Positions 7,077 through 32,000 of a DNA stretch of 32,000 bases are shown here, one piece after another. A program made the position numbers and the translations under genes. This DNA is from Dickeya solani IPO 2222 (GTDB taxonomy: Bacteria > Pseudomonadota > Gammaproteobacteria > Enterobacterales > Enterobacteriaceae). How positions within the stretch are numbered: the first letter of the stretch is position 1; the number at the start of each line of letters is the position of its first letter. The stretch is from assembly GCF_001644705.1 (NCBI RefSeq), contig NZ_CP015137.1:4887834-4919833 (forward strand), read 5' to 3'. Under the pieces are notes generated by a model, which saw nothing but the letters and a program-made list of their open reading frames with translations, made no database searches and had not been told where the DNA came from.

Positions 7077-7081
7077 TGATA

Positions 7082-8353: not shown

Positions 8354-8450
8354 TGTGCTGACCGGTTCCTGTGGTTGCCGCAGGAACCGTTTCCCACTAT
8401 CACCGTGCGTTTCATCCATAAACGCGCTACACATAAAAAGTTCCGCCCAT

Positions 8451-20550: not shown

Positions 20551-20635
20551 GCCGTTGCGAGCAGCCTTAATCGCAACGGCTACGCTTTACCTGCGGATGG
20601 GAACACCCGGCGCAGCCTGCGCGCACCGGGTGTTC
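20551..20635 (-). terminator. Two GC-rich hairpins immediately 3' of the cI-like gene
   Basis: GAACACCCGG...CCGGGTGTTC (20601-20635) and GCCGTTGCG...CGCAACGGC (20551-20580). On the minus strand the second hairpin is followed by a T-rich stretch. Confidence 0.45.
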
Positions 20636-20640
20636 GGATA

Positions 20641-21510
20641 TCAGAAGCTGGGGGTTAGCGTCAGCACCACCACACCGCGCGGCGTGACCTCATCCACCCC
20701 ACACTGGAATTGCGAACCGCCGCCTTCGACCTGCATTTTACGCCCCGGCAACAGCGCCACATCGTAGATATCGCTCTTGCCGTCGATATCCAGCAACCAG
20801 CGACCATTGCTGATACTGGTAATGCCGGTATCCACCAGCCAGGAAGACGAACTCCCTTCAACCAGCAAAGGCGCATGTAATCCCGCAGGGATAAACTGCG
20901 GATCCGCCTTCCACTCCCCCGCATCCTGCAGCTTTCCGGTTTTCAACAGATTACGCGGGATCAGGCATATGCCGCTGTCATCATGACGACTGACGGGCAC
21001 GTCATTCTGCTGCGGCGAACCTTTACCGGTTGCCAGCCACGCCAGCGACACGCCGGTATCCAGCGCGCAGGTGACCACCACATCCCCGGGAAAGAAATCA
21101 CGACGAATCCAGGTGCTGATCGTACCGGGCGCGATGCCCAGCAGATCGCCCAACTCTTTTTGCGTGCTGAAGCCATAGGCATCAAGCATGCGGCGCAGCA
21201 CAGCCTTGCCGCCCGATGACAGAATCTGCTCATAAAGCGCTTTGCCTTTCAGCGGCGATTTATGCGTAAAAACATTCGCATTTGCGAACTCTCCGGTGAC
21301 CAGCCATCCGGCATCTGCTCCGGTATCAAGCGCGCACTTCAAAATAATATTACCCGGCACGTTCCCTCGCTGAACCCAGTTACTGATTGTGTTGGTAGGT
21401 ATCTCAGTGACCTCGCTCAGTTCCTTCTGAGTCTTTACTCCGTAGCTTGACATGATGCGCTCAAGCACGAAGGCCGCAGACACGGCATTACTATTTGTAT
21501 TCAAAAACAC
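20641..21510 (-). CDS. cI: Phage 186-type CI repressor with a tandemly duplicated N-terminal HTH domain
   Basis: 289 aa with a GTG start. Residues ~15-75 and ~104-164 are paralogous. Segment 1 is VLERIMSSYGVKTQKEL...ISNW...CALDTGADAGWLVTG. Segment 2 is VLRRMLDAYGFSTQKEL...ISTW...CALDTGVSLAWLATG. Both resemble the 186 CI N-terminal domain as I recall it, and a ~115 aa C-terminal domain follows. Confidence 0.8.
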   Translation of the reverse strand: MFLNTNSNAVSAAFVLERIMSSYGVKTQKELSEVTEIPTNTISNWVQRGNVPGNIILKCALDTGADAGWLVTGEFANANVFTHKSPLKGKALYEQILSSGGKAVLRRMLDAYGFSTQKELGDLLGIAPGTISTWIRRDFFPGDVVVTCALDTGVSLAWLATGKGSPQQNDVPVSRHDDSGICLIPRNLLKTGKLQDAGEWKADPQFIPAGLHAPLLVEGSSSSWLVDTGITSISNGRWLLDIDGKSDIYDVALLPGRKMQVEGGGSQFQCGVDEVTPRGVVVLTLTPSF

Positions 21511-21520
21511 CTCACGAGTA

Positions 21521-21584
21521 TTTACATATACACGTTACGTGTCTTATAGTGTCTACACAGCACATGTAACACCATAGAACACCC
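21521..21584. promoter_or_regulatory. Lysis/lysogeny switch region: candidate promoters and operator repeats
   Basis: The rightward candidate is TTTACA (21521-26), N18, TATAGT (21545-50). The leftward candidate is GTTACA (complement of 21565-70), N16, TATAAG (complement of 21543-48). The palindrome ACACGT-T-ACGTGT sits at 21530-42. GTGTCT occurs twice (21539, 21549) and AACACC twice (21568, 21578), each pair 10 bp apart. Confidence 0.4.
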
Positions 21585-21607
21585 TGGCCTGGGGGAGATA
21601 TTGCTTT

Positions 21608-22078
21608 ATGTCGGACGAGATTTCAATTCTATCGCGCATTTCTGAGGAAAATCCTACATCAACGAGTCCATCCGTTGAGACAGAAACCGGCTTTTCGGCC
21701 GTCAATCGACGGCCTCATGCTATACCTGACCAAGCGTCGGTTTCTTTCACCGGCTTGCGCAACACGGTCTACGCCGCTGCGCCGGCATCCGAGGTGCGGC
21801 GTGCGGCATGCCACATAAGGAAACAGCATGTCCGGCTTGCCTGTATCACGCCTCAACGCGATTTTGCAAATGCAAAAACGGTCTTCGCCACCGTAACGAC
21901 AACAGCCCGGTTTTCCCACCTCATCGCTGTCTATACGCTACCGGAGCGGCACAGTCGTTCTACCGTTGTGAATGGCGACAATGATTTTAACGCAAAATTC
22001 GGAAAATCGAATTCTGGTTATATTCTGCTCGGGTTTCCGCAGGCTGCCGGCCACGATGGCAAACGAGCGTTATCATGA
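21608..22078 (+). CDS. Hypothetical protein, first ORF of the early rightward operon (occupies the Cox/Apl position but is not recognisably related)
   Basis: 156 aa. GGGGGAG lies upstream of the ATG, and an ATGA overlap couples it to the next ORF. Codon usage is mixed and I recognise no motif. Confidence 0.4.
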   Translation: MSDEISILSRISEENPTSTSPSVETETGFSAVNRRPHAIPDQASVSFTGLRNTVYAAAPASEVRRAACHIRKQHVRLACITPQRDFANAKTVFATVTTTARFSHLIAVYTLPERHSRSTVVNGDNDFNAKFGKSNSGYILLGFPQAAGHDGKRALS

Positions 22079-22605
22079 AGCCCCATTATGCCTTTACCGC
22101 CGACCATCTGCAGACCCTGCCGCCCAATTTGCGGGCGCTGATCGGAAAACACTTCGCGGATTCGCGCTGGGCGCAGACCTGCGTTTTTTACCGGCGGCTC
22201 TCCGAACGCTATCGCCGCACGCTGTGTTTTCATGCTGCACTGCACCATCGCTGGTGCGTCTATCAACTGGAAGAGATGGATGAAATGGCGCGTGAAAGAA
22301 TTGTCAGCGCACTGAATGAACTGCGTAGCGCATTCGGCTTGCCGGAAAAACAGGCGCAGAGCCAGTTGCTGCTCTCGGTTCGGGTCCTCACCCTCAGCGA
22401 GCGCCGCACGCTGTTTTTCCATGCCGGGCTCTCGACCCAGGAATTCGATCAACCCTTGCGACGCATTGACGAGTCGGATTGCCAGTGGGCGAAAGCGCTT
22501 AACCGCGCCCTCGGTGAGCTGCACCACCTGTTTGCCGAGGCGCCCGACATTCTGACCAGTATCAGACCCGAGCACTATTTCAGACCCGAACCCTATTCTC
22601 GTTGA
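22075..22605 (+). CDS. Hypothetical early protein with two internal LSER-R-TL-FHA-L repeats (possible tandem sigma70-r4/LuxR-like HTH)
   Basis: 176 aa. Its position corresponds to P2 B or 186 cII/fil/dhr. The repeats are RRLSERYRRTLCFHAAL and LTLSERRTLFFHAGLSTQEF. Confidence 0.6.
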   Translation: MKPHYAFTADHLQTLPPNLRALIGKHFADSRWAQTCVFYRRLSERYRRTLCFHAALHHRWCVYQLEEMDEMARERIVSALNELRSAFGLPEKQAQSQLLLSVRVLTLSERRTLFFHAGLSTQEFDQPLRRIDESDCQWAKALNRALGELHHLFAEAPDILTSIRPEHYFRPEPYSR

Positions 22606-22721
22606 CCGTTTCGCTGACGACGGATCTCGCCAGAAAAAACGACATCGTTAACTCAACCGCCAGCACACAGGCCGCCGCTCAGGCTGGTCCACATTGTTGC
22701 TGCTTAACATCAGGAAATTGT

Positions 22722-22937
22722 ATGAAAAAAACACAGCCGAACCACAAGGTGCCGTCTCTCGCCAGGCAGCACATCCCAAATGACGTCTGGCGTACAGACT
22801 TCGCCCATCGCTATAGCGAGCATCTGGACCAGTTGGCGCAACACGCCCGACAGGAACAGTTATCCGCTCAGGAACTGGTGGCGTTGCTGCAACAGGAAGC
22901 CGAAAACATCCGACATCAGATTTGGGAGGCGCACTAA
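22722..22937 (+). CDS. Small P2-family early protein, DUF2732-like
   Basis: 71 aa from the ATG at 22722, with AGGAAA upstream. The C-terminal helix (LSAQELVALLQQEAENIRHQIWEAH) resembles DUF2732 proteins of P2-like prophages as I recall them. A TAATG overlap links it to the next gene. Confidence 0.55.
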   Translation: MKKTQPNHKVPSLARQHIPNDVWRTDFAHRYSEHLDQLAQHARQEQLSAQELVALLQQEAENIRHQIWEAH

Positions 22938-23161
22938 TGGCAGACAGTATGGACATTTCCCAGGAGCAGCAAGCCATGCTGCTGGATGCGCAAATCGCCC
23001 ATGCCCGCAAAGCCCCTACGGCTCACGCCGCCCATGTCTGTGAGGACTGTGATGCGCCGATTCCCGAGGCCCGCCGTCAGGCGATCCCTGGCGTGACGTG
23101 CTGCGTGGCATGTCAGGAAATTCGCGAACAGAAGCAACGTCACTACCGTCCGCCGTCCTGA
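22937..23161 (+). CDS. TraR/DksA-family C4 zinc-finger protein (P2 orf82-like)
   Basis: 74 aa from the ATG at 22937, with GGGAGG upstream. It carries CEDC-N17-CVAC. Confidence 0.8.
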   Translation: MADSMDISQEQQAMLLDAQIAHARKAPTAHAAHVCEDCDAPIPEARRQAIPGVTCCVACQEIREQKQRHYRPPS

Positions 23162-23257
23162 GCGAGCTTTCACTGACTAACAAGCCAGGGTCAATCTGCG
23201 GCTATTCCCGCCGGGAATCTGGCAAACACTCATCGGGTAGGTAAACGCTGGTTAGTT

Positions 23258-25384
23258 ATGACGTCCGACAACGCTGAAAAAAACGCCGACAACCGTGGCA
23301 ACCGCTGGGTATACCCGTGGAATGCGCCCCGCCCCGCCATTCTGCCCGAATCCAGCGTATTGTCTTCGGATACCTTGCAGCAGGGTCAGGCGGTACTGTA
23401 TCGGCTGGCGTTGCTGCCGCGTTTTCTGGCCGGTCATTTCCGCCGCCGCTTCGACTATCTGAAGCAGCAGCAGGGGCTGGGCGCCGCGTTCAGCTATCTG
23501 TTATCGGTGGTTCAGCGGCGGCTCTGGCCGCGAATCGACGCCGTCAACGCCCGCTACCGAATGAATACGGCCTTATCTTCCCACTTCATCAGCGAAGCGG
23601 AACAGTATCACCAGTTGCCGGATATGCCGGACAAGGTTCTGCGCGCGTTTGCGAGCCGCATCGCCGCCCACATGAACGATGCCTACCATGCCCACTGCGA
23701 ACGCTATCTGCAGGAATGCCCCGGCGATCATCAGGCGGAGCTATTCAGTGATGAAACACAAGCGCGTATCTACGGTCAGCTAGCCACACTGGCACAAGCC
23801 GTGAACGTGACGCCCGCCCACTGGCATCGCCATCAAAACGGGACACTCACGCTGGAACAGGCATGTGCCGGCATTATGCGGCTGGTCACCCCCCGATGGT
23901 GGGAGCGTCAGTTGAAAATTCAGCGAACCCGCTGGCGTGAGGCATTGTGGATTGCCAGCGGCGAGGTAAGCCGGGCCGCATCTCCCTTTCTCAGCCGCCA
24001 GGCGCTGCAGGATATCCGCTACCGCCGTCTGGCGACGCTGGATTTTCTGAAAAGTCGCGAGCTGGAAAATACCCGTAACGGCGAGCGGGTCGATTTGATC
24101 GATAAAGTCATGGGCAGTATCGCTAATCCGGATATTCGCCGTATGGAACTGATGACCATGTTGGCGGGTATTGAGCGTTACGCTACCGCACACCAGCACA
24201 TCGGTATGCTGGTGACGTTCACTGCCCCCGGCCACTATCATCCCACCCGTACCCGCGGCCATGACCGGGTATTGGTCAACACCGGATGGATGCCGGATTG
24301 CCCTTCGCCCAAAATGACCCAGCATTATCTGGTCAAGTTATGGGGAAAAATCCGCACCGCGCTCAAAGACCGTAAACTGCAAATCTACGGGTTACGAGTC
24401 GTTGAACCCCATCACGACGGCACGCCGCACTGGCACATGATGCTGTATTGCGAACGCGCACAGCGTCAGGCGATCGTCGACATCCTGCGCCGCTATGCCC
24501 AGCCAAATGAAAGCGACCGTGCCGCGGCGCATAACCGCCGGTTTGACTGCAAGCACATCAATAAAGGCGGCGCGGCGGCATACGTCGCCAAATACATCGC
24601 CAAAAATATCGATGGCTATGCGCTGGATGGCGAAGCAGACCACGAAACCGGAAAACCGCTGAAAGACATGGCCGCCTCCGCCTCGGCCTGGGCCTCGATC
24701 TGGCGCATTCCTCAATTCCATTTCATCGGGTTGCCCACGGTTGGCGCGTACCGCGAATGTCGACGCATTCGCAGCCGCTCATTACAGGATGCGCTGGGCG
24801 AACAGGCCGAAACGGTGAGATTCGCCGCGGATCGCGGTGACTTCGCGGCGTATATCGAGGCGCAGGGCGGCGCGAATGTCGCCCGGCAACACCAGTCGGT
24901 TCGTGTCGCCAGAGCCGCCAGCGAACGGCTGAACGCCTACGATGAAACGATTGTGCGTACCGTCGGTATTTTTTCCGCCCAGCGCGGCCGCGAGCGAGTA
25001 TTCACCACCCGACCGGATGAATGGCAAATCGTGGCCAAAAACCATGCCGGCGGCGATGTCGCCGATCGCCATCGTTCTGCTCTGCCTTGGAGTTCTGTCA
25101 ATAACTGTGGGGGCGTGCTTTCACCCGACGCACTCCCTTATCCATTTCGCGATATTCCCCGCGTTCCTTCAGCGCGGCTAACCTATTTTCAGCGAGATCG
25201 ACTGGCGTCGTTGCGCCCCCGCCTCAGTCAGCAAGGTATTGATACCTCACGCTGGGAACGGGAGGCACTGGTGCGCGGCGCCAAAGTGAAGATTGACGGC
25301 CAACTGATTGATGAATTTAAGAATAAAGCTATATCCGCCGTTGATGAAAAGCGCATCATGAGCACACAGGTGCTGCACTTATGA
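23258..25384 (+). CDS. A: P2 gpA-type replication initiation endonuclease (rolling circle, HUH)
   Basis: 708 aa. It has LRVVEPHHDGTPHWHMML (the HUH region) and AAYVAKYIAKNIDGYALDG (catalytic Tyr pair). It appears collinear with P2 gpA along its length, as I recall that sequence. Confidence 0.92.
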   Translation: MTSDNAEKNADNRGNRWVYPWNAPRPAILPESSVLSSDTLQQGQAVLYRLALLPRFLAGHFRRRFDYLKQQQGLGAAFSYLLSVVQRRLWPRIDAVNARYRMNTALSSHFISEAEQYHQLPDMPDKVLRAFASRIAAHMNDAYHAHCERYLQECPGDHQAELFSDETQARIYGQLATLAQAVNVTPAHWHRHQNGTLTLEQACAGIMRLVTPRWWERQLKIQRTRWREALWIASGEVSRAASPFLSRQALQDIRYRRLATLDFLKSRELENTRNGERVDLIDKVMGSIANPDIRRMELMTMLAGIERYATAHQHIGMLVTFTAPGHYHPTRTRGHDRVLVNTGWMPDCPSPKMTQHYLVKLWGKIRTALKDRKLQIYGLRVVEPHHDGTPHWHMMLYCERAQRQAIVDILRRYAQPNESDRAAAHNRRFDCKHINKGGAAAYVAKYIAKNIDGYALDGEADHETGKPLKDMAASASAWASIWRIPQFHFIGLPTVGAYRECRRIRSRSLQDALGEQAETVRFAADRGDFAAYIEAQGGANVARQHQSVRVARAASERLNAYDETIVRTVGIFSAQRGRERVFTTRPDEWQIVAKNHAGGDVADRHRSALPWSSVNNCGGVLSPDALPYPFRDIPRVPSARLTYFQRDRLASLRPRLSQQGIDTSRWEREALVRGAKVKIDGQLIDEFKNKAISAVDEKRIMSTQVLHL

Positions 25385-25385
25385 G

Positions 25386-25428
25386 TTGACGAATACTACT
25401 GAATAAAGTACTGTATATAAATACAGTC
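25386..25428 (+). promoter_or_regulatory. SOS-regulated promoter: TTGACG-N17-TACTGT overlapped by a LexA box
   Basis: TACTGTATATAAATACAGTC at 25409-25428 is an exact CTGT-N8-ACAG and matches the 20-bp E. coli consensus at 18 of 20 positions. The -35 hexamer is at 25386-91 and the -10 hexamer lies inside the box. Confidence 0.8.
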
Positions 25429-25447
25429 TCACAATGGAAGAGGTACC

Positions 25448-25669
25448 GTGGAACAGACTGAAAACCGAGAGCTGACCTTATCAAGGATTCGATTAATTGC
25501 CGATATGTCATTGATATCACAATGTGATCCTGAAGAAATGAAAATCGCCATGTCGTTGATCGCCGACTTATCTCACGGCGAACTCCCGGATAGTGATTAT
25601 CAACAGTTTCTGAAGAACAGCAGTGATGGACAGCAGCTTAAAGCATGGTTCGAACAACAAATGTTGTAA
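25448..25669 (+). CDS. Small acidic protein under the LexA box, a candidate Tum-like antirepressor
   Basis: 73 aa with a GTG start and GGAAGAGG upstream. It starts 20 bp downstream of the LexA box and occupies the same post-A position as 186 tum. I recognise no sequence similarity. Confidence 0.55.
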   Translation: MEQTENRELTLSRIRLIADMSLISQCDPEEMKIAMSLIADLSHGELPDSDYQQFLKNSSDGQQLKAWFEQQML

Positions 25670-25987
25670 GGGATTTCGATGGATAATAATGATCGACGTG
25701 AAATTCCCTGGCCGATCGCCAGAGGCACGTGCAAATTAATGGATTTTCTCTGTGGCTAACACGCCAGACTAATACGCAGCAAAACTTTTTCGTATCCAGA
25801 CCGCTCAATAAAAGGTCTGACCGGCCAAAGCCGGTATATACATTTTGGCATGAATTTTAATTCTGACTCAGTGCAAACCTGTTCGTTGGTCATGTTTTTC
25901 TCTTTAACACAGTGGTACGGAATTAGGGTACGCCCATGTAAAAACATCTGTGAGTAACATGCCCCGGTCTTCCCGGTACCTTTAATA

Positions 25988-26110
25988 CACAATATCCCCT
26001 GCCAGCAAGGATTGGCAGGGGTCACAATAATCTAGGATCACAATAAATAGGTGCCACAATAAGTCGGCGCCATGATAAGTCGTCGGCACAATAAGCAAGG
26101 GGCACCATAA
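25988..26110 (+). repeat. Left iteron array: seven copies of CACAATAA-like octamers
   Basis: Copies start at 25988 (CACAATAT), 26023, 26039, 26055, 26071 (CATGATAA), 26087 and 26103 (CACCATAA). The last six have an exact 16-bp period. A 9-bp-stem hairpin (25996-26021) separates copies 1 and 2. Confidence 0.9.
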
Positions 26111-26139
26111 ATAAACACCCTGACATCATTTTCCACCGG

Positions 26140-26238
26140 TTGTTGTGCTTCCTGTTGTTGTATTTCCTGTTGTTGTATTTCCAGTTGTTGTATTTCCAGT
26201 TGTTGTACTTCCTATATGTTGTGCCTCCTATTGTTGTG
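26140..26238 (+). repeat. Right iteron array: seven copies of TTGTTGTR, in inverted orientation relative to the left array
   Basis: Copies start at 26140, 26155, 26170, 26185, 26200, 26216 and 26231, a 15-bp period with one 16-bp step. The four central units are near-identical: TTGTTGTATTTCC(T/A)G. Confidence 0.9.
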
Positions 26239-26252
26239 CCATCCGTCCGACA
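26235..26252 (+). promoter_or_regulatory. TGT-N12-ACA dyad (P2 late-promoter activator-site pattern) upstream of gpX
   Basis: TGT is at 26235-37 and ACA at 26250-52. GATAAA at 26290-95 is a possible -10, which puts the dyad near -55 to -58. Confidence 0.35.
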
Positions 26253-26317
26253 CCTTCCCCGTATTGCGACCGCCATCGTTCCTCTGGAGGATAAAGGACC
26301 CGAGATAACCCGTTTTA

Positions 26318-26359
26318 CTCGATCTTTTTTATCTGAATCTCTCGATCTTTTTATCTGAA
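26318..26359 (+). repeat. Tandem ~20-bp direct repeat just upstream of gpX
   Basis: CTCGATCTTTTTTATCTGAA (26318-37) and CTCGATCTTTTTATCTGAA (26341-59). The second ends 14 bp before the X start codon. Confidence 0.85.
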
Positions 26360-26373
26360 CCTAAAGGTATCAT

Positions 26374-26577
26374 ATGAAAGTTTACGCCCATCAGGACGAC
26401 ACCCTGGACGCGCTCTGTTACCGCTATTACGGCCGCACGCAAGGCGTGGTGGAAACGGTTATGCTGTCCAATCAGGGGCTTGCGGATCTTGGCCCCATTC
26501 TGCCACACGGCACCGCCGTCACTTTGCCCGACATGAATGTTTCCGGCTCACAGGAAAGCGTCAATCTCTGGGAATAA
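26374..26577 (+). CDS. X: P2 gpX-like tail protein (LysM-like)
   Basis: 67 aa. MKVYAHQDDTLDALCYRYYGRTQGVVETVMLSNQGLADLG..LPHGTAVTLPD...VNLWE is nearly collinear with P2 gpX as I recall it. Confidence 0.88.
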   Translation: MKVYAHQDDTLDALCYRYYGRTQGVVETVMLSNQGLADLGPILPHGTAVTLPDMNVSGSQESVNLWE

Positions 26578-26652
26578 CTCCGGACTATCAGGCTCCATGC
26601 TCGCCTTCGGCCGATAATACATGGAGATCGCCGCCACACCAGGAACCTTATC

Positions 26653-27114
26653 ATGCAAAAACCACAAAGCCTCAAACTTGCACTGACCACCGCACTACCC
26701 GCGCTGGGCAATGCGTTACAGTTTCGGATCCAGGAGGGGGAAATCGCCGCGTTGCAGGAGCCGTCCCTGTCGTTTGAATACCGCTATCAGCTGCTGCTGA
26801 CGCTGAATAATTTCGCTGACAATCCCGACACCCTTTTTGTCACCCTGCTGCTATGGGTGCGCCAGAACCAGCCGGACTTGTTAACGCGTGAAAGCATCCG
26901 CAACAAAGGCATCAGCTTTACGATCGACAACAATGCGGACAACACCAGCACGCTGTCCGTTCGGCTCAACCTGACAGAGCGCAACCGAGTCAACGAACAG
27001 AATCAAACCCTGCAGGTACAGTATGAACCGGAGCCAACGCCGCCCGAACCGGTTAGCCGCCCTACGGCGCTGTATATCGCCGGCGAACTGGTCAGCCAGT
27101 GGAAAGGGAACTGA
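26653..27114 (+). CDS. R: P2 gpR-like tail completion protein
   Basis: 153 aa. Motifs shared with my recollection of P2 gpR are KP.SL..ALT, W(V/L)R.NQPD, LTER, PPEPV.RP and LYI.GELVS.W. Confidence 0.75.
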   Translation: MQKPQSLKLALTTALPALGNALQFRIQEGEIAALQEPSLSFEYRYQLLLTLNNFADNPDTLFVTLLLWVRQNQPDLLTRESIRNKGISFTIDNNADNTSTLSVRLNLTERNRVNEQNQTLQVQYEPEPTPPEPVSRPTALYIAGELVSQWKGN

Positions 27115-27142
27115 TCCCTTCAACTATCATTTCCTCCATGAT

Positions 27143-27168
27143 GGCCGTTGCGAATACGGCCTGTTTTT
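27143..27168 (+). terminator. Rho-independent terminator after gpR
   Basis: GGCCGT, loop tgcgaat, ACGGCC, then TGTTTTT. Confidence 0.65.
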
Positions 27169-27448
27169 CCTGAGAAACGATAAGCAATGAGTATTTTATG
27201 ATTTAAATATTCATCCCATTTATTTCTAGTTCGTAATTTTCATAATAAACTTTATCTACGCGGTCTGTCTGATGCACCTTCCTTCATTTTCTTCATCGCA
27301 AATTATTTCAGAAATCGCTTTCTACTGTTATCGCCTGGGATTAATCAGTAATACCCTATGACCTTCCATGTTTAATCAGCAAAAAAAACTGCTGATGTTA
27401 TTACCTCACCCCCTCTATTTTGGATTGAATAACTGACGGGAAACACAA

Positions 27449-28213
27449 TTGGATAAAAGCCGAAGTTTGCCACGTAATATGCGAAAGGAATTATTCGATT
27501 TTAAACATTTCGGCAACAATGAGGGATTCCTTTATTACCCGAAAATCATGGAAGATATCCGTCCTTTTCTGCCTGAAAACACCATCGCCCATTACAGCGG
27601 TAATCGTGAAAAATCCAGAAAATTGCTTACTCTGTTCGGTGGTCATTTGGGTGACCCGTATTGCAGCCAGACTGCCGCTCCCAGCGCGTCACCGCAGCTC
27701 ACCAACATGTTCTCTTCCTACGGACAGCTGACGGCCAGAGCGGATTCGCCAACGCCGGTGTTTACCCAGCCCGATTTTCTGCTGCTGTATTGCCTGTGTG
27801 AAACGTCCGTCTTCAAGGTGCTGGTTGGCATTGCCAGTCTTCGCCATGTCATTCAACATCTGGACCGGCAAACCCGCACCGAATTATGCCTGCCGCAGTA
27901 TGCGCTGCGCCCCGGCGTCATCAGCCAGGAACACACACCGTTCAGTCTCCTCAGCGCTGACCACGACCCCTTTCTGACCTGTACGCCTGACCTGGCGTAT
28001 CCCCTGACCTCGCCCGCCAGATATGCGTTGCTGAAGCTCGACCCGCTGCTGAAAAACAGCATGCGATGGCTCAATCTGAAACGGGGCGATCTGCTCATTA
28101 TCGACAACCGCCGCAGTACCCACAACTGCGTGCCATTCACCCCGTTTTTCCGACAGGATTCACCTTACCTGATGCACATGTTCGTCAATAAACCGGACCC
28201 GACACGATACTGA
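27449..28213 (+). CDS. Clavaminate-synthase/TauD-like (Fe(II)/2OG dioxygenase fold) protein, possibly lacking the proximal metal ligands. It is inserted where gpS is expected.
   Basis: 254 aa with a TTG start and GGGAAA upstream. The C-terminal GDLLIIDNRRSTH...PF.P.F resembles the GDxxxxDNxRxxHGR signature of VioC/AsnO/TauD-type enzymes. PDFLLLYCLC resembles their PDxxxLxCL motif. I could not find a clear HxD/E upstream. About 330 bp of AT-rich DNA precedes it. Confidence 0.55.
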   Translation: MDKSRSLPRNMRKELFDFKHFGNNEGFLYYPKIMEDIRPFLPENTIAHYSGNREKSRKLLTLFGGHLGDPYCSQTAAPSASPQLTNMFSSYGQLTARADSPTPVFTQPDFLLLYCLCETSVFKVLVGIASLRHVIQHLDRQTRTELCLPQYALRPGVISQEHTPFSLLSADHDPFLTCTPDLAYPLTSPARYALLKLDPLLKNSMRWLNLKRGDLLIIDNRRSTHNCVPFTPFFRQDSPYLMHMFVNKPDPTRY

Positions 28214-28362
28214 TTCCTTACCCAGGCCAGGCAACGCCACTGCGCTTTATCTTGATGCAAAGGTCGTAATGAATAAGGTCGGGGCGCAAAGATCGGTGGG
28301 ACCATCCGCCACACAACCACGGCGAATTGTCTCATCCTGCGGGAAGACGCATGCTTCCCACC

Positions 28363-29004
28363 ATGAATACATACGAATATCTCTCCGAAATCCAGCGCGC
28401 ACTGCGTAACCTGATTCGTATCGGCGTCATCACCGAGGTCGATACCCAACAGGCACGCTGCCGCGTGCAGACCGGTGGCATGGTCACCGGGTGGCTCCAC
28501 TGGCTGTCCCGTCGTGCGGGGAGTTCCCGCGAATGGTGGGCACCGTCGGTGGGTGAACAGGTGTTACTGCTTGCAATAGGAGGCGAACTCAATACGGCAT
28601 TTGTCTTACCGGGTATTTACAGCGAACACCATCCGGCCCCATCGGCCTCTGCGGATGCCTGCCACATCCGCTTCCCTGATGGTGCGGTGATGGAATACGA
28701 ACCGGCCAACGGCGCGCTGACCGTCACCGGTATCAAGAGCGCGGCAGTCGTCGCATCGGAATCGGTGACCGTCACCACGAAAAACGTCACCATCAACGCC
28801 AGCCAGCGCATCACGCTGGACACCCCGGAAGTCGTCTGTACGCACAAATTAATCACCCAGACCATCGACGTTCAGCAAGGCGGCAACATCACCGGTAGCG
28901 TCACCCACTCGGGGGGAAGTTTCTCCTCCAATGGCGTGGTGGTGCATACCCATCAGCACAGCGGCGTACAAAGTGGCGGCGGCACAACAGGAGGACCTCT
29001 ATGA
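28363..29004 (+). CDS. V: P2 gpV baseplate spike
   Basis: I chose the ATG at 28363 (MNTYEYLSEIQRALRNLIRIG), which aligns with the P2 gpV N-terminus. Shared segments include RCRVQTGGM, WWAPSVGEQVL, HIRFPDGAV.EYEP and LDTPEVVCT. Confidence 0.92.
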   Translation: MNTYEYLSEIQRALRNLIRIGVITEVDTQQARCRVQTGGMVTGWLHWLSRRAGSSREWWAPSVGEQVLLLAIGGELNTAFVLPGIYSEHHPAPSASADACHIRFPDGAVMEYEPANGALTVTGIKSAAVVASESVTVTTKNVTINASQRITLDTPEVVCTHKLITQTIDVQQGGNITGSVTHSGGSFSSNGVVVHTHQHSGVQSGGGTTGGPL

Positions 29005-29351
29005 CCAGCACGTCATACACCGGCATGAATCGCAGCACCGGCGGCAGCCTCAGCGATCTGGAACATTTGCGTCAAAGCGTGCGCGATATTCTGACCACCC
29101 CGCAAGGCAGCCGTGTCATGCGGCGCAATTACGGTTCGCTGCTTTCCACCCTGATCGACCAGCCGCAAACGCCCGCGCTGAAACTACAGGTGCAGGCGGC
29201 CTGCTATGTCGCGTTGCTGAAGTGGGAACCGCGGCTGACGCTGACGTCCATCTCAATGGAAAGCCACTACGACGGCCAGTTGATTGTGGATATTTCCGGC
29301 ACCCTGGCCGGCAACGGCACATCCCTTTCGTTAACCATTCCCGTGAGCTGA
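29001..29351 (+). CDS. W: P2 gpW baseplate wedge protein (GPW/gp25 family)
   Basis: 116 aa with an ATGA overlap with V. The motif is L.QSVRDILTTP.GSRVMRR.YGS.L. Confidence 0.9.
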   Translation: MTSTSYTGMNRSTGGSLSDLEHLRQSVRDILTTPQGSRVMRRNYGSLLSTLIDQPQTPALKLQVQAACYVALLKWEPRLTLTSISMESHYDGQLIVDISGTLAGNGTSLSLTIPVS

Positions 29352-29355
29352 GATC

Positions 29356-30264
29356 ATGCCTCTTATCGACTTAAGTCAGTTACCCGCCCCTAGCGTGGTC
29401 GAAACGCTGGATTATGAAACCCTGTACGCCACACGCAAAGAAACCCTGCTGTCGCTCTACAGCGCCGATGAGCGTGAAGCCATTGCGCGCGCCCTGACGC
29501 TGGAGTCGGAACCGCTGGTGAAACTGCTGCAGGAAAACGCCTACCGCGAGCTGCTGCTGCGCCAGCGCATCAATGAAGCCGCTCAGGCCGGGATGCTGGC
29601 GTTTGCCCAGGGCAACGATCTGGACCAGTTGGGCGCCAACGTCAACGTCTCCCGACTGGTGATCACCCCGGCTGACAATACCACCGTTCCCCCGACCGCC
29701 GCCGTGATGGAATCCGATACCGATTTCCGTCTGCGCATTCAGCAGGCTTATGAAGGTCTGAGCGTGGCAGGCTCCATCGGCGCCTACCAGTTCCACGGGC
29801 GCAGCGCCAGCGGCCAGGTGGCGGATATTTCGGTCATCAGCCCTGGTCCCGCTCAGGTGCTGGTGTCGGTCCTGTCGCGGGAAAATGACGGCACGGCCAG
29901 CGATACGCTGCTTGCCACCGTCAATGCGGCGCTGAACGCCGAAGACGTCAGGCCGGTGGCTGACCGGGTTACCGTCAAATCGGCGGTGATTGTTCCTTAC
30001 GATATCAATGCCGTGCTTTACCTGTATCCCGGCCCGGAAGTCGAGCCGATCCGCGCCGCCGCCGAGAAGAAACTGCAGAGTTACGTCAGCACCCAGCACC
30101 GGCTGGGTCGCGATATCCGCCGTTCCGCCATCTACGCCGCACTGCATGTGGAAGGGGTTCAGCGGGTAGAGCTGGCTCGCCCGGCGGAGGATATCGTGCT
30201 GGACGATACCCAGGCGTCGCACTGCACCGGTTATACCCTGACGCTGGGGGGAACGGATGAATAA
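29356..30264 (+). CDS. J: P2 gpJ baseplate assembly protein
   Basis: 302 aa Baseplate_J-like protein (IDLSQLPAP.VVE.LDYE). It overlaps gene I by 8 nt. Confidence 0.9.
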   Translation: MPLIDLSQLPAPSVVETLDYETLYATRKETLLSLYSADEREAIARALTLESEPLVKLLQENAYRELLLRQRINEAAQAGMLAFAQGNDLDQLGANVNVSRLVITPADNTTVPPTAAVMESDTDFRLRIQQAYEGLSVAGSIGAYQFHGRSASGQVADISVISPGPAQVLVSVLSRENDGTASDTLLATVNAALNAEDVRPVADRVTVKSAVIVPYDINAVLYLYPGPEVEPIRAAAEKKLQSYVSTQHRLGRDIRRSAIYAALHVEGVQRVELARPAEDIVLDDTQASHCTGYTLTLGGTDE

Positions 30265-30868
30265 AAGCCCCCTGCTGCCCCCCGGTTCATCGCCGCTGGA
30301 GCATGCCGTTGCCGTCACCGGCGCCAAACTGGAAGCCGTGCCGATTCCTCTGCGCCAACTCTGGAATCCGGAGACCTGTCCGGTCGAGCTGCTGCCTTAT
30401 CTGGCCTGGACGCTATCGGTTGACCGCTGGGATGAAAGCTGGACGGAAACCGTCAAACGCAAAGTCATCAGGGACGCATTCTTTATCCACCGCCACAAGG
30501 GCACTATCGGCGCGCTGCGCCGGGTCGTTGAGCCGCTGGGATACCTGATTCGCATCAAGGAGTGGTGGCAAACCGGCGACGCCCCCGGCACCTTCCGGCT
30601 GGATATCGGTATTCAGGAATCAGGGATCACCGAAGAGTCCTTTCAGGAGCTGGAGCGCCTGATTGCCGACGCCAAACCGGTTAGCCGCCAGATGCTGGGG
30701 TTAAACATCAATCTGGACAGTTCGGGTACGCTGTTAATGGGTGCCGGCTCCTATAGCGGCGACGAACTCACCATCTACCCCTACTTCCCTGAAACCATCA
30801 GCGTTTTTGGCGAAGAGATCAATGGGGCGGCCATTCACCTGATTGATGATATCTACGTCGGTGGCTGA
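30257..30868 (+). CDS. I: P2 gpI tail/baseplate protein
   Basis: 203 aa. Segments LLP.GSSPLE, LWNP.TCP..LLP.LAW..SVDRWDE.W and HKGTIGA.RRVVEPLGYLI match my recollection of P2 gpI. Confidence 0.9.
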   Translation: MNKSPLLPPGSSPLEHAVAVTGAKLEAVPIPLRQLWNPETCPVELLPYLAWTLSVDRWDESWTETVKRKVIRDAFFIHRHKGTIGALRRVVEPLGYLIRIKEWWQTGDAPGTFRLDIGIQESGITEESFQELERLIADAKPVSRQMLGLNINLDSSGTLLMGAGSYSGDELTIYPYFPETISVFGEEINGAAIHLIDDIYVGG

Positions 30869-30885
30869 TTTTCCCCCTCGTTCCA

Positions 30886-30909
30886 AGCCAGCCTGCGCTG
30901 GCTTTTTTT
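30886..30909 (+). terminator. Rho-independent terminator between I and H
   Basis: AGCCAGC, loop ctgc, GCTGGCT, running into a run of seven T. Confidence 0.75.
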
Positions 30910-30932
30910 ATGGAGGAATCGCCGCCGGATGT

Positions 30933-30950
30933 TGTCTCCCCACGCTAACA
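30933..30950 (+). promoter_or_regulatory. GTTGT-N12-ACAAC dyad (P2 late-promoter pattern) upstream of H
   Basis: TGT is at 30933-35 and ACA at 30948-50, extendable to a 5-bp dyad. CATACT at 30985-90 as the -10 puts the dyad centre near -55. Confidence 0.4.
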
Positions 30951-31225
30951 ACGCCCGCCGGATGCGCCAACGGCGCCGACTTCGCATACTACCTCCACCC
31001 AGGCTGTGTCCCCGGGTAACGCATTTCACGACCAACACGGACGCGCACCTACCCCGGCGCATCACCCAACCTGATAACGCCTTTGGAGTCTGCGCCCGCG
31101 ACACGAACCGGGACACAGCCTACCCACAGCCGGGCATACCGGCTGGTCATCGCCCGTCGGCCAGCCCGGCTTCTCCGATGCCGCCCTGCGGCATCCTATC
31201 CTGTCAACCGTAATGAGTAATCTGC

Positions 31226-32000
31226 ATGAGTACAAAATACTTTGCTTTACTGACGAACACTGGCGCGGCGAAGCTGGCTAACGCCACCGCGCTGGGTAGC
31301 CATCTGGCTATCACGCAAATGGCGGTGGGCGATGGCGGCGGCAGCCTGCCGACCCCGACCCCCGCTCAAACCAAACTGGTCAATGAGAAACGCCGCGCCG
31401 CCCTCAACGCGTTAAGCATCGACCCGCAAAACACCAACCAGATCATGGCCGAGCAGGTGATTCCTGAGAATGAAGGCGGCTGGTGGATCCGCGAAATCGG
31501 TCTGTACGACAGCGACGGCGATCTGATCGCTGTCGCAAACTGCGCCGAGACTTATAAACCGCAGTTGCAGGAAGGATCAGGCCGGGTGCAAACCGTGCGT
31601 ATGATCCTGATTGTCAGCACGACCGAAACCATTACCCTGAAGATTGACCCGGCGGTGGTGCTGGCCACTCGTCAATACGTCGATGATAGCGCCATTGAGG
31701 TCAAGGCCTACGCCGACACCCAACTCAACGCTCATGTTGCAGCCGCCAACCCTCATCCGCAGTACGCACCGCTCAATAGTCCGGCATTGACCGGCGCGCC
31801 CACCGCGCCAACGGCGGAGAAAAGCGTGAACTCCACGCAGCTGGCCACCACCGCGTTTGTCAAAAACGTCGCCCTGCTCAAAGCGCAGAACGGCGCCGAC
31901 ATCGCCGACAAATCGGCTTTTCTCGCAAACCTGGGTTTAAGCGACGTGCTGAAAACCACCGACCTGGCGGGCATACCGCTGCCCTGGCCGCAGGCGACGC
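31226..32000 (+). CDS. H: P2 gpH tail fibre, N-terminal part (open at the window end)
   Basis: Read directly: MSTKYFALLTNTGAAKLANATALGS...MAVGDGGG...GGWWIREIGLYD...IAVANCAETYKP..EGSGR...PLNSPALTGAPTAPTA..NSTQLATTAFV. There is no stop codon before base 32000. Confidence 0.9.
   Translation, partial: MSTKYFALLTNTGAAKLANATALGSHLAITQMAVGDGGGSLPTPTPAQTKLVNEKRRAALNALSIDPQNTNQIMAEQVIPENEGGWWIREIGLYDSDGDLIAVANCAETYKPQLQEGSGRVQTVRMILIVSTTETITLKIDPAVVLATRQYVDDSAIEVKAYADTQLNAHVAAANPHPQYAPLNSPALTGAPTAPTAEKSVNSTQLATTAFVKNVALLKAQNGADIADKSAFLANLGLSDVLKTTDLAGIPLPWPQAT

What the first reader, a model, noticed from the sequence alone, without database searches (positions are those of the whole stretch)
20641..32000. 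Head-less, integrase-less P2/186-type element: the switch and replication module is joined directly to baseplate and tail genes
The canonical P2 prophage order is int-C-cox-B-A-(tin/old)-cos-Q-P-O-N-M-L-X-Y-K-lysA-lysB-R-S-V-W-J-I-H. The order here is cI, two unknown ORFs, DUF2732-like, traR-like, A, an accessory kilobase, X, R, an accessory kilobase, V-W-J-I, a spacer, then H. I find no int 3' of cI; hairpins and AT-rich DNA sit there instead. There is no recognisable Cox/Apl, no Q-P-O-N-M-L, no holin/endolysin/spanin block between X and R, and no gpS. The retained genes nevertheless look intact: A is a 708-aa open frame, and V/W and J/I keep their coupled overlaps. That pattern fits selective retention better than random decay. 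Phage-tail bacteriocins of P2 ancestry are known in soft-rot Enterobacterales. However, a tailocin that retains a complete gpA initiator and a CI/LexA switch while lacking lysis genes and gpS is not the textbook layout.
Basis: partly seen in the sequence, partly recalled or inferred. Interest (0 to 1): 0.72.

Follow-up and report, generated by a model that had tools for sequence, protein, structure and literature searches.

The report
Dickeya tailocin locus keeping replication genes
This is the Dickeya solani copy of the already published P2D1 "dickeyocin" locus, a P2/186-type prophage reduced to a factory for killer phage tails, and it has kept an SOS-controlled switch and an intact replication origin and initiator that nobody has yet explained.

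Summary
Window 20641-32000 holds cI, orf156, gpB, DUF2732, TraR, gpA, orf73, X, R, orf244, V, W, J, I and H. It holds no integrase, Cox/Apl, head, lysis or gpS gene.

The window is 100% identical to D. solani IFB0311. Downstream lie an invertible fibre segment, then G, FI, FII, E, T, U, D and ogr, then host genes. The missing genes are therefore not just outside the window.

This is the genus-wide P2D1-type dickeyocin locus. Particles and killing are published for D. dadantii 3937 and for D. solani, so the object is already known.

New here:
- The same head-less, lysis-less, S-less order occurs in 16 Dickeya-type loci.
- gpA is always one intact ORF with its catalytic motifs. Its dN/dS is 0.08-0.12, like a flanking host gene.
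- The P2/186 ori nick core inside gpA is the most codon-invariant spot in the gene.
- The repressor is 186-CI type, not LexA-like.
- The window's only LexA box overlaps the -10 of a promoter just after gpA. It drives orf73, a probable Tum-like antirepressor.
- Ogr-type late-promoter boxes sit before X, V and FI.

The release mechanism and the role of replication remain open.

The parts
20641..21510 (-). cI: 186-type immunity repressor with a duplicated N-terminal HTH domain (289 aa by ORF, 287 aa as called)
   Evidence: Pfam Phage_CI_repr x2 (6e-47) plus Phage_CI_C (3e-20), no peptidase S24. 34% identity to 186 CI residues 13-185. dN/dS 0.02-0.06.
21521..21550 (+). pR-like early promoter TTTACA-18-TATAGT in the cI/early-operon switch region
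   Evidence: Best sigma-70 match in 20000-32000, 10 of 12. The switch region is almost invariant in three Dickeya species. Function is inferred.
21608..22078 (+). orf156: fast-evolving unknown gene in the cox/apl position, translationally coupled to gpB (ATGA overlap)
   Evidence: No Pfam, PHROG, NCBIfam or PADLOC hit. Open in three species at 154-160 aa with an in-frame 12-nt indel. dN/dS 0.59-0.67.
22075..22605 (+). gpB homologue (P2 replication protein B)
   Evidence: PF26815 Phage_RepB. phrog_235, 1e-78. 46% identity to P2 B residues 3-165. dN/dS 0.12-0.18.
22722..22937 (+). DUF2732 protein (P2 orf80 / 186 gp34 equivalent)
   Evidence: PF10809. dN/dS 0.09-0.15.
22937..23161 (+). TraR/DksA-type C4 zinc-finger protein (P2 orf82 equivalent)
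   Evidence: PF01258, 2e-11. 55% identity to P2 orf82.
23258..25384 (+). gpA: HUH rolling-circle replication initiator, 708 aa, intact
   Evidence: PF05840, 4e-88; phrog_91, 2e-252. HUH PHWHMM and YVAKY tyrosines align with P2 and 186. Intact in 16 of 16 loci. dN/dS 0.08-0.12.
25089..25108 (+). ori nick-site core GGAGTTCTGTCAATAACTGT inside gpA (codons about 611-617)
   Evidence: Aligns with the annotated nick sites of P2 (29892) and 186 (28576). Present in 15 of 16 loci. Codon-invariant at 6 of 7 invariant degenerate residues, against 7.8% gene-wide; this is the top window in the gene.
25386..25428 (+). p95-like SOS promoter: -35 TTGACG, and -10 TACTGT that is the first 6 nt of the LexA box TACTGTATATAAATACAGTC (25409-25428)
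   Evidence: Only CTGT-N8-ACAG match in 32 kb, 0.28 expected by chance. PWM score 27.6, identical in D. undicola and D. oryzae. Same geometry as 186 p95. A LexA box follows gpA in nearly all P2-like proviruses with 186-type CI and in none with a P2-C-type repressor.
25448..25669 (+). orf73: probable Tum-like antirepressor (N-terminal-domain-only form)
   Evidence: phrog_1993. The Yersinia phage homologue also carries a LexA box. Profile-profile match to the 186 Tum N-terminus, P = 1.3e-4 over 37 columns. dN/dS 0.05-0.13. Pairwise BLAST to Tum is negative.
26139..26237 (.). 15-nt tandem array (6.5 copies of GTTGTTGTACTTCCT) running into the X late-promoter box; seen only in D. solani
   Evidence: TRF. 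Absent from the other species in the alignment. Meaning unknown.
26235..26252 (+). Ogr-type activator box TGTGCCATCCGTCCGACA (TGT-N12-ACA), 139 nt upstream of X; a pO-like late promoter fused to X
   Evidence: TGT and ACA are conserved while the centre varies in 10 Dickeya-type loci. Resembles the P2 pO, pV and pF sites.
26374..26577 (+). gpX (LysM-like baseplate/tail protein X)
   Evidence: PF05489, 1e-27. 66% identity to P2 X.
26653..27114 (+). gpR (tail terminator/completion). It follows X after only 75 bp, where P2 carries Y-K-lysA-lysB-lysC
   Evidence: PF06891, 6e-34; phrog_65. 44% identity to P2 R.
27143..27161 (+). terminator-like hairpin plus T-run after R
   Evidence: It sits where P2 has the O-operon terminator after S.
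27479..28213 (+). orf244: accessory gene at the P2 orf30 site, distantly Fe(II)/2-oxoglutarate-dioxygenase-like; not gpS
   Evidence: NCBIfam clavaminate-synthase-like, 1.3e-12, far below the curated cut-off. phrog_18172. Absent in D. oryzae and several other loci. No phage match.
28295..28318 (+). pV-like activator box GGTGGGACCATCCGCCACACAACC, centred about 57 nt before the V start
   Evidence: The outer halves are conserved in 10 loci. The geometry matches P2 pV, whose box is 56 nt before the V start.
28351..29004 (+). gpV baseplate spike
   Evidence: PF04717, PF18715. 66% identity to P2 V.
29001..29351 (+). gpW baseplate wedge (gp25-like)
   Evidence: PF04965. 60% identity to P2 W.
29356..30264 (+). 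gpJ baseplate protein
   Evidence: Baseplate_J N, M and C domains. 74% identity to P2 J.
30257..30868 (+). gpI baseplate protein
   Evidence: PF09684. 65% identity to P2 I.
30885..30904 (+). terminator-like hairpin plus T-run directly after I, at the start of the I-H spacer
30933..30950 (+). candidate activator box TGTCTCCCCACGCTAACA in the I-H spacer (possible separate promoter for H)
   Evidence: TGTCTC...CA motifs recur upstream of H in most Dickeya-type loci. Weak evidence.
31226..32000 (+). gpH tail fibre, N-terminal part (401 aa in this orientation; continues beyond the window)
   Evidence: 57% identity to P2 H residues 1-159. PF12571 plus Collar.
31913..32000 (.). left arm of the 241-nt inverted repeat of the invertible fibre segment (continues to 32153; the partner lies at window-equivalent 36557-36797)
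   Evidence: Inverted repeat 96% complementary, with a serine invertase just outside the right arm. Both orientations occur among D. solani assemblies.

Best explanation
The region is the left half of the Dickeya solani (strain IFB0311) P2D1-type dickeyocin locus. The locus is about 23.6 kb, runs from cI to ogr, and sits fixed between host genes. It descends from a 186/P2-like prophage that lost int, cox/apl, the whole head and packaging block (Q-L), the lysis cassette and gpS. It now makes contractile phage tails used as a bacteriocin.

Proposed working order:
1. DNA damage removes LexA from the box that overlaps the -10 of the promoter just downstream of gpA. The box and promoter are shown; the response is inferred.
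2. The 73-aa Tum-like protein is made and inactivates the 186-type CI (inferred from homology, position and co-occurrence).
3. pR fires and expresses orf156, B, DUF2732, TraR and A (inferred).
4. gpA nicks its own ori inside the gene and, with gpB, starts replication in situ on the chromosome, because no excision machinery exists. Intactness and selection on A, B and ori are shown; activity is inferred. This raises template dosage and/or satisfies the known replication requirement for P2 late transcription.
5. Ogr, encoded at the right end, activates the late promoters before X-R, V-W-J-I and FI-D. The boxes are shown.
6. Tails assemble with R alone as terminator. A Gin/Hin-type invertase switches the C-terminus of fibre H.
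7. Release must rely on lysis functions encoded elsewhere or on another route, because the locus has none.
For: Identity:
- The window is 100% identical to D. solani IFB0311.
- The full P2 tail gene set is present, and head, int, lysis and S genes are absent.
- Published P2D1 particles contain V, J, H, the side fibre, FI and FII from the orthologous D. dadantii cluster. Highly similar clusters are reported in D. solani, whose tailocins were imaged and kill (PMC10719855; PMC11974492).

Domestication:
- The order is the same in 16 loci, and the host flanks are the same where they could be seen.
- dN/dS is low for all genes except orf156.

Switch:
- CI is 186-type.
- There is a single perfect LexA box, conserved across species, with the geometry of 186 p95.
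- A LexA box after gpA co-occurs with 186-type CI across 63 P2-like proviruses and is absent from those with a P2-C-type repressor.
- orf73 aligns to the Tum N-terminus, P = 1.3e-4.
- P2D1 is induced by mitomycin C, ciprofloxacin and norfloxacin, and its regulators are stated to be unknown (PMC12297226).

Replication:
- HUH and Tyr motifs are present and the ORF is intact in 16 of 16 loci.
- The ori core is present in 15 of 16 and shows a synonymous-site conservation peak exactly at the nick site.
- gpB is retained.

Late control:
- ogr is present.
- Conserved boxes lie before X, V and FI.
- Terminators follow R and I.
Against: - No experiment or expression data were available here for this strain.
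- The link from orf73 to Tum is weak at the sequence level: pairwise BLAST is negative and the hhalign probability is only 54%.
- CI operators were not defined.
- It is not shown that gpA fires in situ or that replication is needed for tail production. P4 delta can drive P2 late genes without replication (PMC12239096).
- The direction of fork movement was not established.
- No lysis gene was found in the locus, so the release step is unexplained.
- Direct alignment to the D. dadantii 3937 sequence was not possible with these collections.
Confidence: 0.85

Rival explanations
1. It is a plain decaying P2/186-like prophage remnant with no current function. The retained genes are simply those that have not yet been hit.
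For: Large deletions have occurred: the head block, the lysis cassette, S and int. One gene, orf156, evolves almost neutrally. Some assemblies show broken genes: IFB0487 has a split gpA, and IFB0223 has a split R.
Against: The same gene set and order occur in 16 loci across species that differ by dS 0.3-1.6. dN/dS is 0.02-0.18 for all genes except orf156 and the accessory orf244, at 0.25. The IFB0487 assembly also splits the host gene rsmF, which points to sequencing indels. Particles from the orthologous locus have been purified and are active (PMC10719855, PMC11974492).
Confidence: 0.03
2. It is a rearranged but complete prophage whose head, lysis and int genes lie just outside the window.
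Against: About 12 kb further right hold only the invertible fibre segment, G, FI, FII, E, T, U, D and ogr, then host amidohydrolase, GGDEF and MCP genes. Left of cI are host genes. No P2 head, lysis or int homologue was found anywhere in 40.9 kb.
Confidence: 0.01
3. The locus is the tailocin, but gpA, gpB and ori are kept for a job other than amplifying or activating the tail genes. Candidates are killing the committed producer through runaway nicking and replication, interfering with incoming P2/186-like phages, or a role that needs only the protein and not the origin.
For: Purifying selection on A and B says they are used but not what for. The locus lacks lysis genes, so some other route to producer death or release is needed. 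P2 late genes can be expressed without replication when activated by P4 delta (PMC12239096).
Against: The ori DNA is itself under selection at synonymous sites. That argues for the A-ori reaction in cis rather than a protein-only role. The ancestral P2 logic, late transcription dependent on replication, is established knowledge recalled from memory and gives a simpler reason for retention.
Confidence: 0.15
4. SOS induction does not go through orf73. Instead CI is inactivated directly (RecA-dependent) or by another host factor, and orf73 is an unrelated SOS-controlled gene.
For: orf73 has no annotated function, and its similarity to Tum is marginal.
Against: CI has no S24 autocleavage domain and belongs to the family of 186 CI, which is not RecA-cleaved (the latter point is established knowledge). 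The position, the LexA box geometry and the co-occurrence with 186-type CI all match the Tum system.
Confidence: 0.15

Closest known systems
Dickeyocin P2D1 of Dickeya dadantii 3937 and the P2D1-like clusters of other Dickeya and Musicola (Borowicz et al. 2023, PMC10719855; Mol Ecol 2025, PMC11974492)
   Same: Same genus and the same P2-derived tail gene set. The head genes are missing in both. Phytase-like and transporter genes lie inside the cluster, in varying orientation. Size is similar: 22.5-26.6 kb reported, about 23.6 kb here. D. solani is explicitly reported to carry a highly similar cluster and to make active particles.
   Different: Nothing structural; this is the D. solani orthologue. 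The held papers do not describe the repressor, the LexA box and orf73, gpA/gpB/ori, ogr and the late promoters, the invertase, or the lack of lysis genes and gpS. They state that the tape-measure gene is missing, whereas a short T of 366-388 aa is present.
Coliphage 186 (Eganvirus), early region and SOS operon
   Same: Both have a CI of the same family. Both carry DUF2732 and TraR genes before A, with ori inside A. Both have a LexA box overlapping the -10 of a promoter directly after A that drives a small protein whose N-terminus resembles Tum.
   Different: No int, apl, cII, fil, dhr or orf97, and no head or lysis genes. CI has a duplicated HTH domain. orf73 lacks the DinI-like C-terminal half of Tum. 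gpB is P2-like.
Phage P2 (Peduovirus P2)
   Same: B, orf80, orf82, A, X, R, V, W, J, I, H, G, FI, FII, E, T, U, D and ogr are 44-79% identical and in the same order. Ogr-type late-promoter boxes are in equivalent places. Accessory genes are inserted at the same hot spot between the R/S tail-completion genes and V (P2 orf30); P2's other accessory-gene site, G to FI, is not the one used here (the inserted block lies between H and G).
   Different: The repressor type differs (P2 C versus 186 CI). No cox, int, Q-L, Y-K-lysABC, S, old, tin or fun. T is less than half as long. An invertible fibre segment with host-type cargo has been inserted.
R-type pyocins of Pseudomonas aeruginosa (textbook P2-derived tailocin)
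   Same: Both are head-less contractile tails of P2 ancestry at a fixed chromosomal site, are SOS-inducible and are used for killing.
   Different: From memory, pyocin clusters carry their own holin and lytic enzyme, are controlled by PrtR/PrtN, and have no replication initiator or origin. The Dickeya locus has no lysis genes, a 186-type CI with a Tum-like circuit, and a conserved gpA, gpB and ori.
Carotovoricin Er of Pectobacterium; Mu G and P1 C invertible segments
   Same: A serine invertase next to inverted repeats inside the tail-fibre gene switches the fibre C-terminus.
   Different: Here the 4.4-kb invertible segment also carries three host-type genes: phytase-like, an MFS transporter and SmrA. 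It carries no alternative chaperone genes. Carotovoricin is reported to be phylogenetically distinct from P2D1 (PMC10719855).

Membership tests
P2-derived R-type tailocin (dickeyocin P2D1 type) | Complete contractile-tail gene set: sheath, tube, E/E', tape measure, U, D, X, R, V, W, J, I, fibre and chaperone | tested here: met
   Pfam and tblastn hits for all of them in the window plus L001 and L026. T is short, at 366 aa.
P2-derived R-type tailocin (dickeyocin P2D1 type) | No capsid, portal or terminase genes | tested here: met
   No Q, P, O, N, M or L hit in 40.9 kb, nor in the 12 other Dickeya-type loci mapped with P2 proteins (L105, L106, L109-L117).
P2-derived R-type tailocin (dickeyocin P2D1 type) | Fixed chromosomal locus without an integrase, vertically inherited | tested here: met
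   Host genes lie on both sides and no int remnant exists. The same left flank occurs in D. oryzae. The order is the same in 16 loci.
P2-derived R-type tailocin (dickeyocin P2D1 type) | Orthology to the experimentally characterised cluster of D. dadantii 3937 (NC_014500 2,730,482-2,757,061) | not testable with these tools
   NC_014500 is in none of the collections. It is supported indirectly: the papers report highly similar clusters in D. solani, and the gene list, size and phytase/transporter insert match.
P2-derived R-type tailocin (dickeyocin P2D1 type) | Particles produced on induction that kill related strains | not testable with these tools
   Published for D. dadantii 3937 and D. solani A623-S20-A17 (PMC10719855, PMC11974492). 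Not shown for strain IFB0311.
P2-derived R-type tailocin (textbook layout, e.g. R-pyocin) | Own lysis cassette (holin and endolysin, with or without spanins) in the cluster | tested here: not met
   Only 75 bp separate X and R. There is no Y, K or lysABC homologue. A relative, L117, keeps holin-endolysin-Rz/Rz1 at that site.
Complete P2/186-like temperate prophage (Peduoviridae) | Integrase and att, head and packaging module, lysis module, gpS | tested here: not met
   All are absent. By contrast 40 or more full P2-like proviruses show Q, N and int within the same flanks.
186-type SOS-inducible switch | Repressor of the 186 CI family (Phage_CI_repr plus Phage_CI_C), not self-cleaving | tested here: met
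186-type SOS-inducible switch | LexA-repressed promoter downstream of gene A, with the box overlapping the -10 | tested here: met
   Conserved in all 16 Dickeya-type loci.
186-type SOS-inducible switch | Tum antirepressor encoded behind that promoter | tested here: inconclusive
   BLASTP is negative. Profile-profile comparison gives P = 1.3e-4 and 54% probability over the N-terminal 37 columns. The DinI-like half is missing.
186-type SOS-inducible switch | Apl and CII on the lytic transcript | tested here: not met
   No hits. The unrelated orf156 occupies the position.
P2 gpA-type HUH rolling-circle initiator with internal ori | PF05840 domain, HUH motif, paired catalytic tyrosines, and the nick-site sequence within its own gene | tested here: met
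   Nicking activity itself is not testable here.
Gin/Hin/Cin-type invertible tail-fibre switch | Serine invertase adjacent to inverted repeats that lie within the fibre gene, with both orientations observed | tested here: met
   Resolvase plus HTH_7 protein; 241-nt inverted repeats, 96% complementary. Opposite orientations occur in IFB0231, CP017453 and IFB0223.

The most novel reading that the evidence does not exclude
The dickeyocin is a 'replicative tailocin'. After SOS induction, gpA nicks the origin inside its own gene and, with gpB, over-replicates the tail-gene cluster in situ on the chromosome. This amplification, or replication-coupled late activation, is a selected and necessary step of tailocin production that has been kept for the whole history of the genus. 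The locus has also outsourced lysis. If so, domesticated phage-tail weapons can retain and depend on a phage replication origin, which has not been described for tailocins in the literature I could search.
Probability: 0.4. Interest if true: 0.65.

Novelty: already known. Interest (0 to 1): 0.4.

Why it matters
The object is a published tailocin locus, so finding it is not news. The anatomy worked out here does give testable answers to a question the P2D1 papers leave open, namely how production is regulated.

- It proposes a concrete regulatory chain: LexA box, Tum-like orf73, 186-type CI, early operon, then Ogr and the late promoters.
- It raises a question nobody seems to have asked. Why has a domesticated tail weapon kept an intact rolling-circle initiator, helicase loader and origin under purifying selection across a genus?
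- It raises a second question. How are particles released without any lysis gene in the locus?

These points matter for engineering dickeyocins as crop-protection agents (yield, induction, host range through fibre inversion). They also matter for understanding how prophages are domesticated.

Tried and rejected
- Megablast and blastn of the region against 50,697 phage genomes gave only a 310-bp gpA match to Yersinia phages. The post-A spacer (25660-26380) and orf244 gave nothing.
- No tRNA and no Rfam family was found in the window.
- orf244 is not 186 Orf97, despite similar size and neighbourhood. It is not gpS either; it is weakly Fe/2OG-dioxygenase-like and absent in several species.
- orf73 versus Tum by BLASTP was negative. 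The link appeared only after collecting the proteins that follow LexA boxes in 40 or more P2-like proviruses.
- No defence-system (PADLOC) hits were found for orf156, orf73, orf244 or the cargo genes.
- PDB sequence searches with gpR and P2 gpS found no solved relatives, so I could not test whether R alone can cap both tube and sheath.
- A search for shared operator words between the cI switch and the ogr promoter found none.
- The genome-contig scan with gpA returned only D. undicola and D. oryzae among Dickeya. The other species had to be taken from unnamed IMG/VR proviruses, so species names for L105-L117 are unknown.
- The Christie and Calendar P2 review is not in the library. The replication requirement for P2 late genes therefore rests on my own knowledge plus an indirect statement in PMC12239096.

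Full report
**1. Observation**

- cI, 20641-21510 on the minus strand.
- Then on the plus strand: orf156, a 176-aa ORF, a DUF2732 protein, a TraR/DksA zinc-finger protein and gpA (708 aa, PF05840, E = 4e-88).
- About 1 kb of accessory DNA, then X and R.
- About 1.2 kb of accessory DNA, then V/W (4-nt overlap) and J/I (8-nt overlap).
- A 357-bp spacer, then H from 31226.

tblastn with every P2 protein and the 186 early proteins found no Q, P, O, N, M, L, Y, K, lysA/B/C, S, orf30, int, C, cox, apl, cII or tum. This covered the window plus 8.9 kb downstream. Ten different P2-like integrases gave no remnant. No tRNA or Rfam family is present.

Three corrections apply:
- The 176-aa ORF is gpB. It matches PF26815 and is 46% identical to P2 B.
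- The repressor is 186-CI type with a duplicated HTH domain and no LexA-like peptidase.
- The DNA after gpA carries conserved functional elements, described in section 5.

**2. Provenance and the rest of the element**

The window is 100% identical to contig JABAOO010000002.1 of Dickeya solani IFB0311.

Left of cI are host genes: MCP, DUF1482, rsmF, pqiAB, a GAF protein, proQ and prc.

Right of the window, in order:
- H, 401 aa.
- A block holding a phytase-like gene, an MFS transporter and SmrA.
- A reversed fibre fragment.
- A serine invertase.
- A 192-aa fibre-like protein.
- G, FI, FII and E.

A 99%-identical IMG/VR provirus continues with T, U, D and ogr. After that come a host amidohydrolase, a GGDEF protein and an MCP.

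The element therefore runs about 23.6 kb from cI to ogr.

**3. It is a known thing**

The literature tools show that Dickeya dadantii 3937 makes the tailocin 'dickeyocin P2D1'.
- It comes from a 22-kb P2-like cluster lacking head genes.
- V, J, H, a side fibre, sheath and tube were identified in the particles.
- 'Highly similar regions' are reported in D. solani (PMC10719855).

A later paper compares the clusters across Dickeya and Musicola. It images D. solani tailocins and shows that they kill. It also notes that phytase-family and transporter genes inside the cluster differ in orientation between strains (PMC11974492).

The window holds the left half of that locus in D. solani. None of the four P2D1 papers I read mentions a repressor, LexA, replication genes, an invertase or lysis genes. 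One states that the regulators 'remain to be elucidated'. A wider search found no tailocin paper combining these terms.

**4. Retention versus decay**

The same order recurs widely: cI, orf156, B, DUF2732, TraR, A, orf73, X, R, (orf244), V, W, J, I, H.
- It occurs in D. undicola and D. oryzae.
- It occurs in further Dickeya-type proviruses whose gpA is 94% down to 62% identical.

| Gene(s) | Pairwise dN/dS (Nei-Gojobori) |
|---|---|
| gpA | 0.08-0.12 |
| gpB | 0.12-0.18 |
| cI | 0.02-0.06 |
| orf73 | 0.05-0.13 |
| X, R, V, W, J, I | 0.02-0.09 |
| flanking host MCP | 0.11 |
| orf244 | 0.25 |
| orf156 | 0.59-0.67 |

These values were obtained at dS of 0.3-1.6.

In 16 loci gpA is always one open frame of 705-754 aa with the HUH motif (PHWH[MLI]M) and the Y-x-A-K-Y tyrosines. 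The one D. solani assembly with a split gpA (IFB0487) also has a split host rsmF, so sequencing indels are the likely cause.

Selective retention is therefore well supported.

**5. The switch**

A strong sigma-70-like promoter, TTTACA-18-TATAGT at 21521-21550, faces the early genes in a nearly invariant switch region.

The only CTGT-N8-ACAG match in the 32-kb window is TACTGTATATAAATACAGTC at 25409-25428, with 0.28 expected by chance. It lies 24 nt after the gpA stop.
- Its first six bases form the -10 of a promoter whose -35 is TTGACG.
- This is exactly the geometry annotated for p95 of phage 186, which lies after gene A and drives tum.
- The box is identical in D. undicola and D. oryzae. It is present in all Dickeya-type loci (identical in all but L116, whose box scores 26.0 instead of 27.6) and in front of the orf73 homologue of a Yersinia P2-like phage.

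Across 63 P2-like proviruses, a LexA box sits 36-40 nt past gpA in nearly all elements that have a 186-type CI. It sits in none that has a P2-C-type repressor.

The proteins behind those boxes share an N-terminal motif with 186 Tum. A profile-profile comparison of the orf73 family with the Tum family gives P = 1.3e-4 over 37 columns, at 54% probability. Plain BLAST sees nothing.

I therefore read orf73 as a Tum-like antirepressor that lacks the DinI-like half. That would explain the published induction by mitomycin C and fluoroquinolones. This step is inferred, not shown.

**6. Replication module**

The nick-site core of P2 and 186 is annotated in their records. It is present inside Dickeya gpA as GGAGTTCTGTCAATAACTGT at 25089-25108.
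- It occurs in 15 of 16 loci.
- Among 255 alignment columns with an invariant degenerate amino acid, only 7.8% keep the same codon in all 15 distinct sequences.
- At residues 610-617, six of seven do. This is the highest-scoring window in the gene.

The DNA sequence of the origin is thus under selection in its own right. With no integrase and no excisionase, a nick here can only start replication in situ.

From established knowledge of P2 (my own recollection; the main review is not in the library), gpA acts in cis and normal late transcription needs both Ogr and phage DNA replication. PMC12239096 notes that only P4 delta bypasses the replication requirement. The simplest reason to keep A, B and ori is therefore template amplification and/or replication-coupled late activation.

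I could not establish the direction of fork movement. By analogy with other HUH initiators it would run from A toward the tail genes.

**7. Late expression**

ogr (63 aa, PF04606) sits at the right end behind a TTGCAA-17-TATCAT promoter that is overlapped by the palindrome GAATTTGCAAATTC.

Ogr-type boxes are conserved at three places, with fixed TGT and ACA flanks and variable centres:
- 118-139 nt before X. This appears to be a pO-like promoter fused to X after loss of O-L.
- About 57 nt before V, the same geometry as P2 pV.
- 89 nt before FI.

Terminator-like hairpins follow R and I. H may have its own promoter in the spacer, but the evidence is weak.

**8. What is missing and what that implies**

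X and R are 75 bp apart where P2 carries its five lysis genes. A more distant relative (L117, gpA 56% identical, host unknown) is also head-less and S-less but still has holin, endolysin and Rz/Rz1 between X and R. The likely history is:
1. Loss of the head block and S came first.
2. Loss of the lysis cassette came later, in the Dickeya/Musicola lineage.
3. The invertase and cargo block were gained.

Loss of gpS together with the heads fits a head-joining role for S, with R sufficing to terminate the tail. I could not test this.

How particles leave the cell is unexplained by the locus. D. solani strains carry 2-3 other prophages (PMC7325237), which could supply lysis functions.

**9. Verdict**

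The entity is the already published P2D1-type dickeyocin locus, so I rate novelty as 'already known' and interest as moderate.

What this analysis adds:
- A specific, testable regulatory circuit.
- Evidence that the replication origin and its proteins are maintained by selection in a domesticated tailocin.
- The clean absence of lysis genes and gpS across the genus.

The most novel reading not excluded is a 'replicative tailocin' that depends on in situ amplification. I give it about 0.4.

Noticed in passing
window 31913-32000, continuing to window-equivalent 36797 (L001 11657-16541); invertase at L001 16578-17174: The tail-fibre gene H is split by a 241-nt inverted repeat (96% complementary) that bounds a 4.4-kb invertible segment, with a serine invertase just outside it. 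Besides the two alternative H C-termini, the segment carries three host-type genes: phytase-like (451 aa), an MFS transporter (448 aa) and SmrA endonuclease (188 aa). Both orientations occur among D. solani assemblies. Flipping also changes which cargo genes lie downstream of H. The literature noted the variable orientation but not the invertase.
   Followed up: partly
L026 4469-5569 (T); compare L022-L033 and L173: The tape-measure gene T is only 366-388 aa in the D. solani-type clade. It is 672-741 aa in other Dickeya-type loci and 814-815 aa in P2. Published tail lengths are nevertheless 166 nm (P2D1) and 153 +/- 20 nm across Dickeya/Musicola. This does not fit the usual ruler relation between tape-measure length and tail length. 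T also diverges fast: 67% identity between strains whose tube proteins are identical.
   Followed up: partly
L173 / L004 (D. solani IFB0223, CP024710.1, about 2,758,170-2,786,100): This strain has a partial tandem duplication of the tailocin locus. A first copy ends in a truncated D (215 aa) fused to a truncated DUF2732 gene (62 aa) of a second copy, and the chromosome is about 17.7 kb longer than its relatives. It could be a real local amplification or an assembly artefact. R is split in the second copy.
   Followed up: no
window 21608-22078 (orf156), especially about 21861-21879 and about 21995-22015; ogr promoter at L026 7250-7300: orf156 evolves almost neutrally (34-53% amino-acid identity between species) yet stays open and coupled to gpB. 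It contains islands of invariant DNA (TTTTGCAAATGCAAAA and AAATTCGGAAAATCGAATTC). These resemble the palindrome GAATTTGCAAATTC that overlaps the -35 of the ogr promoter. They may be shared operator sites for an unidentified regulator, perhaps the second HTH of CI.
   Followed up: partly
window 26039-26095 and 26139-26237: Two tandem arrays lie in the spacer between orf73 and X: 16 nt x 3.6 copies and 15 nt x 6.5 copies. The second repeats the left half of the Ogr box (TGTTGTTGT) and runs into the real box at 26235. It is seen only in D. solani among the aligned species.
   Followed up: no
L117 (IMGVR_UViG_2808606816_000003) 6522-8415: A more distant relative of the locus (gpA 56%, cI 78%, orf73 66% identical) is also head-less and lacks gpS. 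It still has holin, endolysin and Rz/Rz1 between X and R, and an H-G junction without the cargo block. It looks like an earlier stage of the same domestication. Its host organism is not identified.
   Followed up: partly
window 20641-21510: The CI repressor carries two tandem copies of the 186-type N-terminal HTH domain (residues about 15-75 and 104-164) before the C-terminal domain. 186 CI has one.
   Followed up: no
window 27479-28213: orf244 sits in the same slot as the nonessential orf30 of P2. It is distantly similar to Fe(II)/2-oxoglutarate dioxygenases of the clavaminate-synthase type (E = 1.3e-12, well below the family cut-off). It is present in some Dickeya species only.
   Followed up: partly
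L002 / L009 / L171 (D. solani IFB0487, JABAOP010000001.1): This assembly shows frameshifts in gpA, cI, J and also the host gene rsmF. Apparent pseudogenes in it are probably sequencing indels, not biology.
   Followed up: partly
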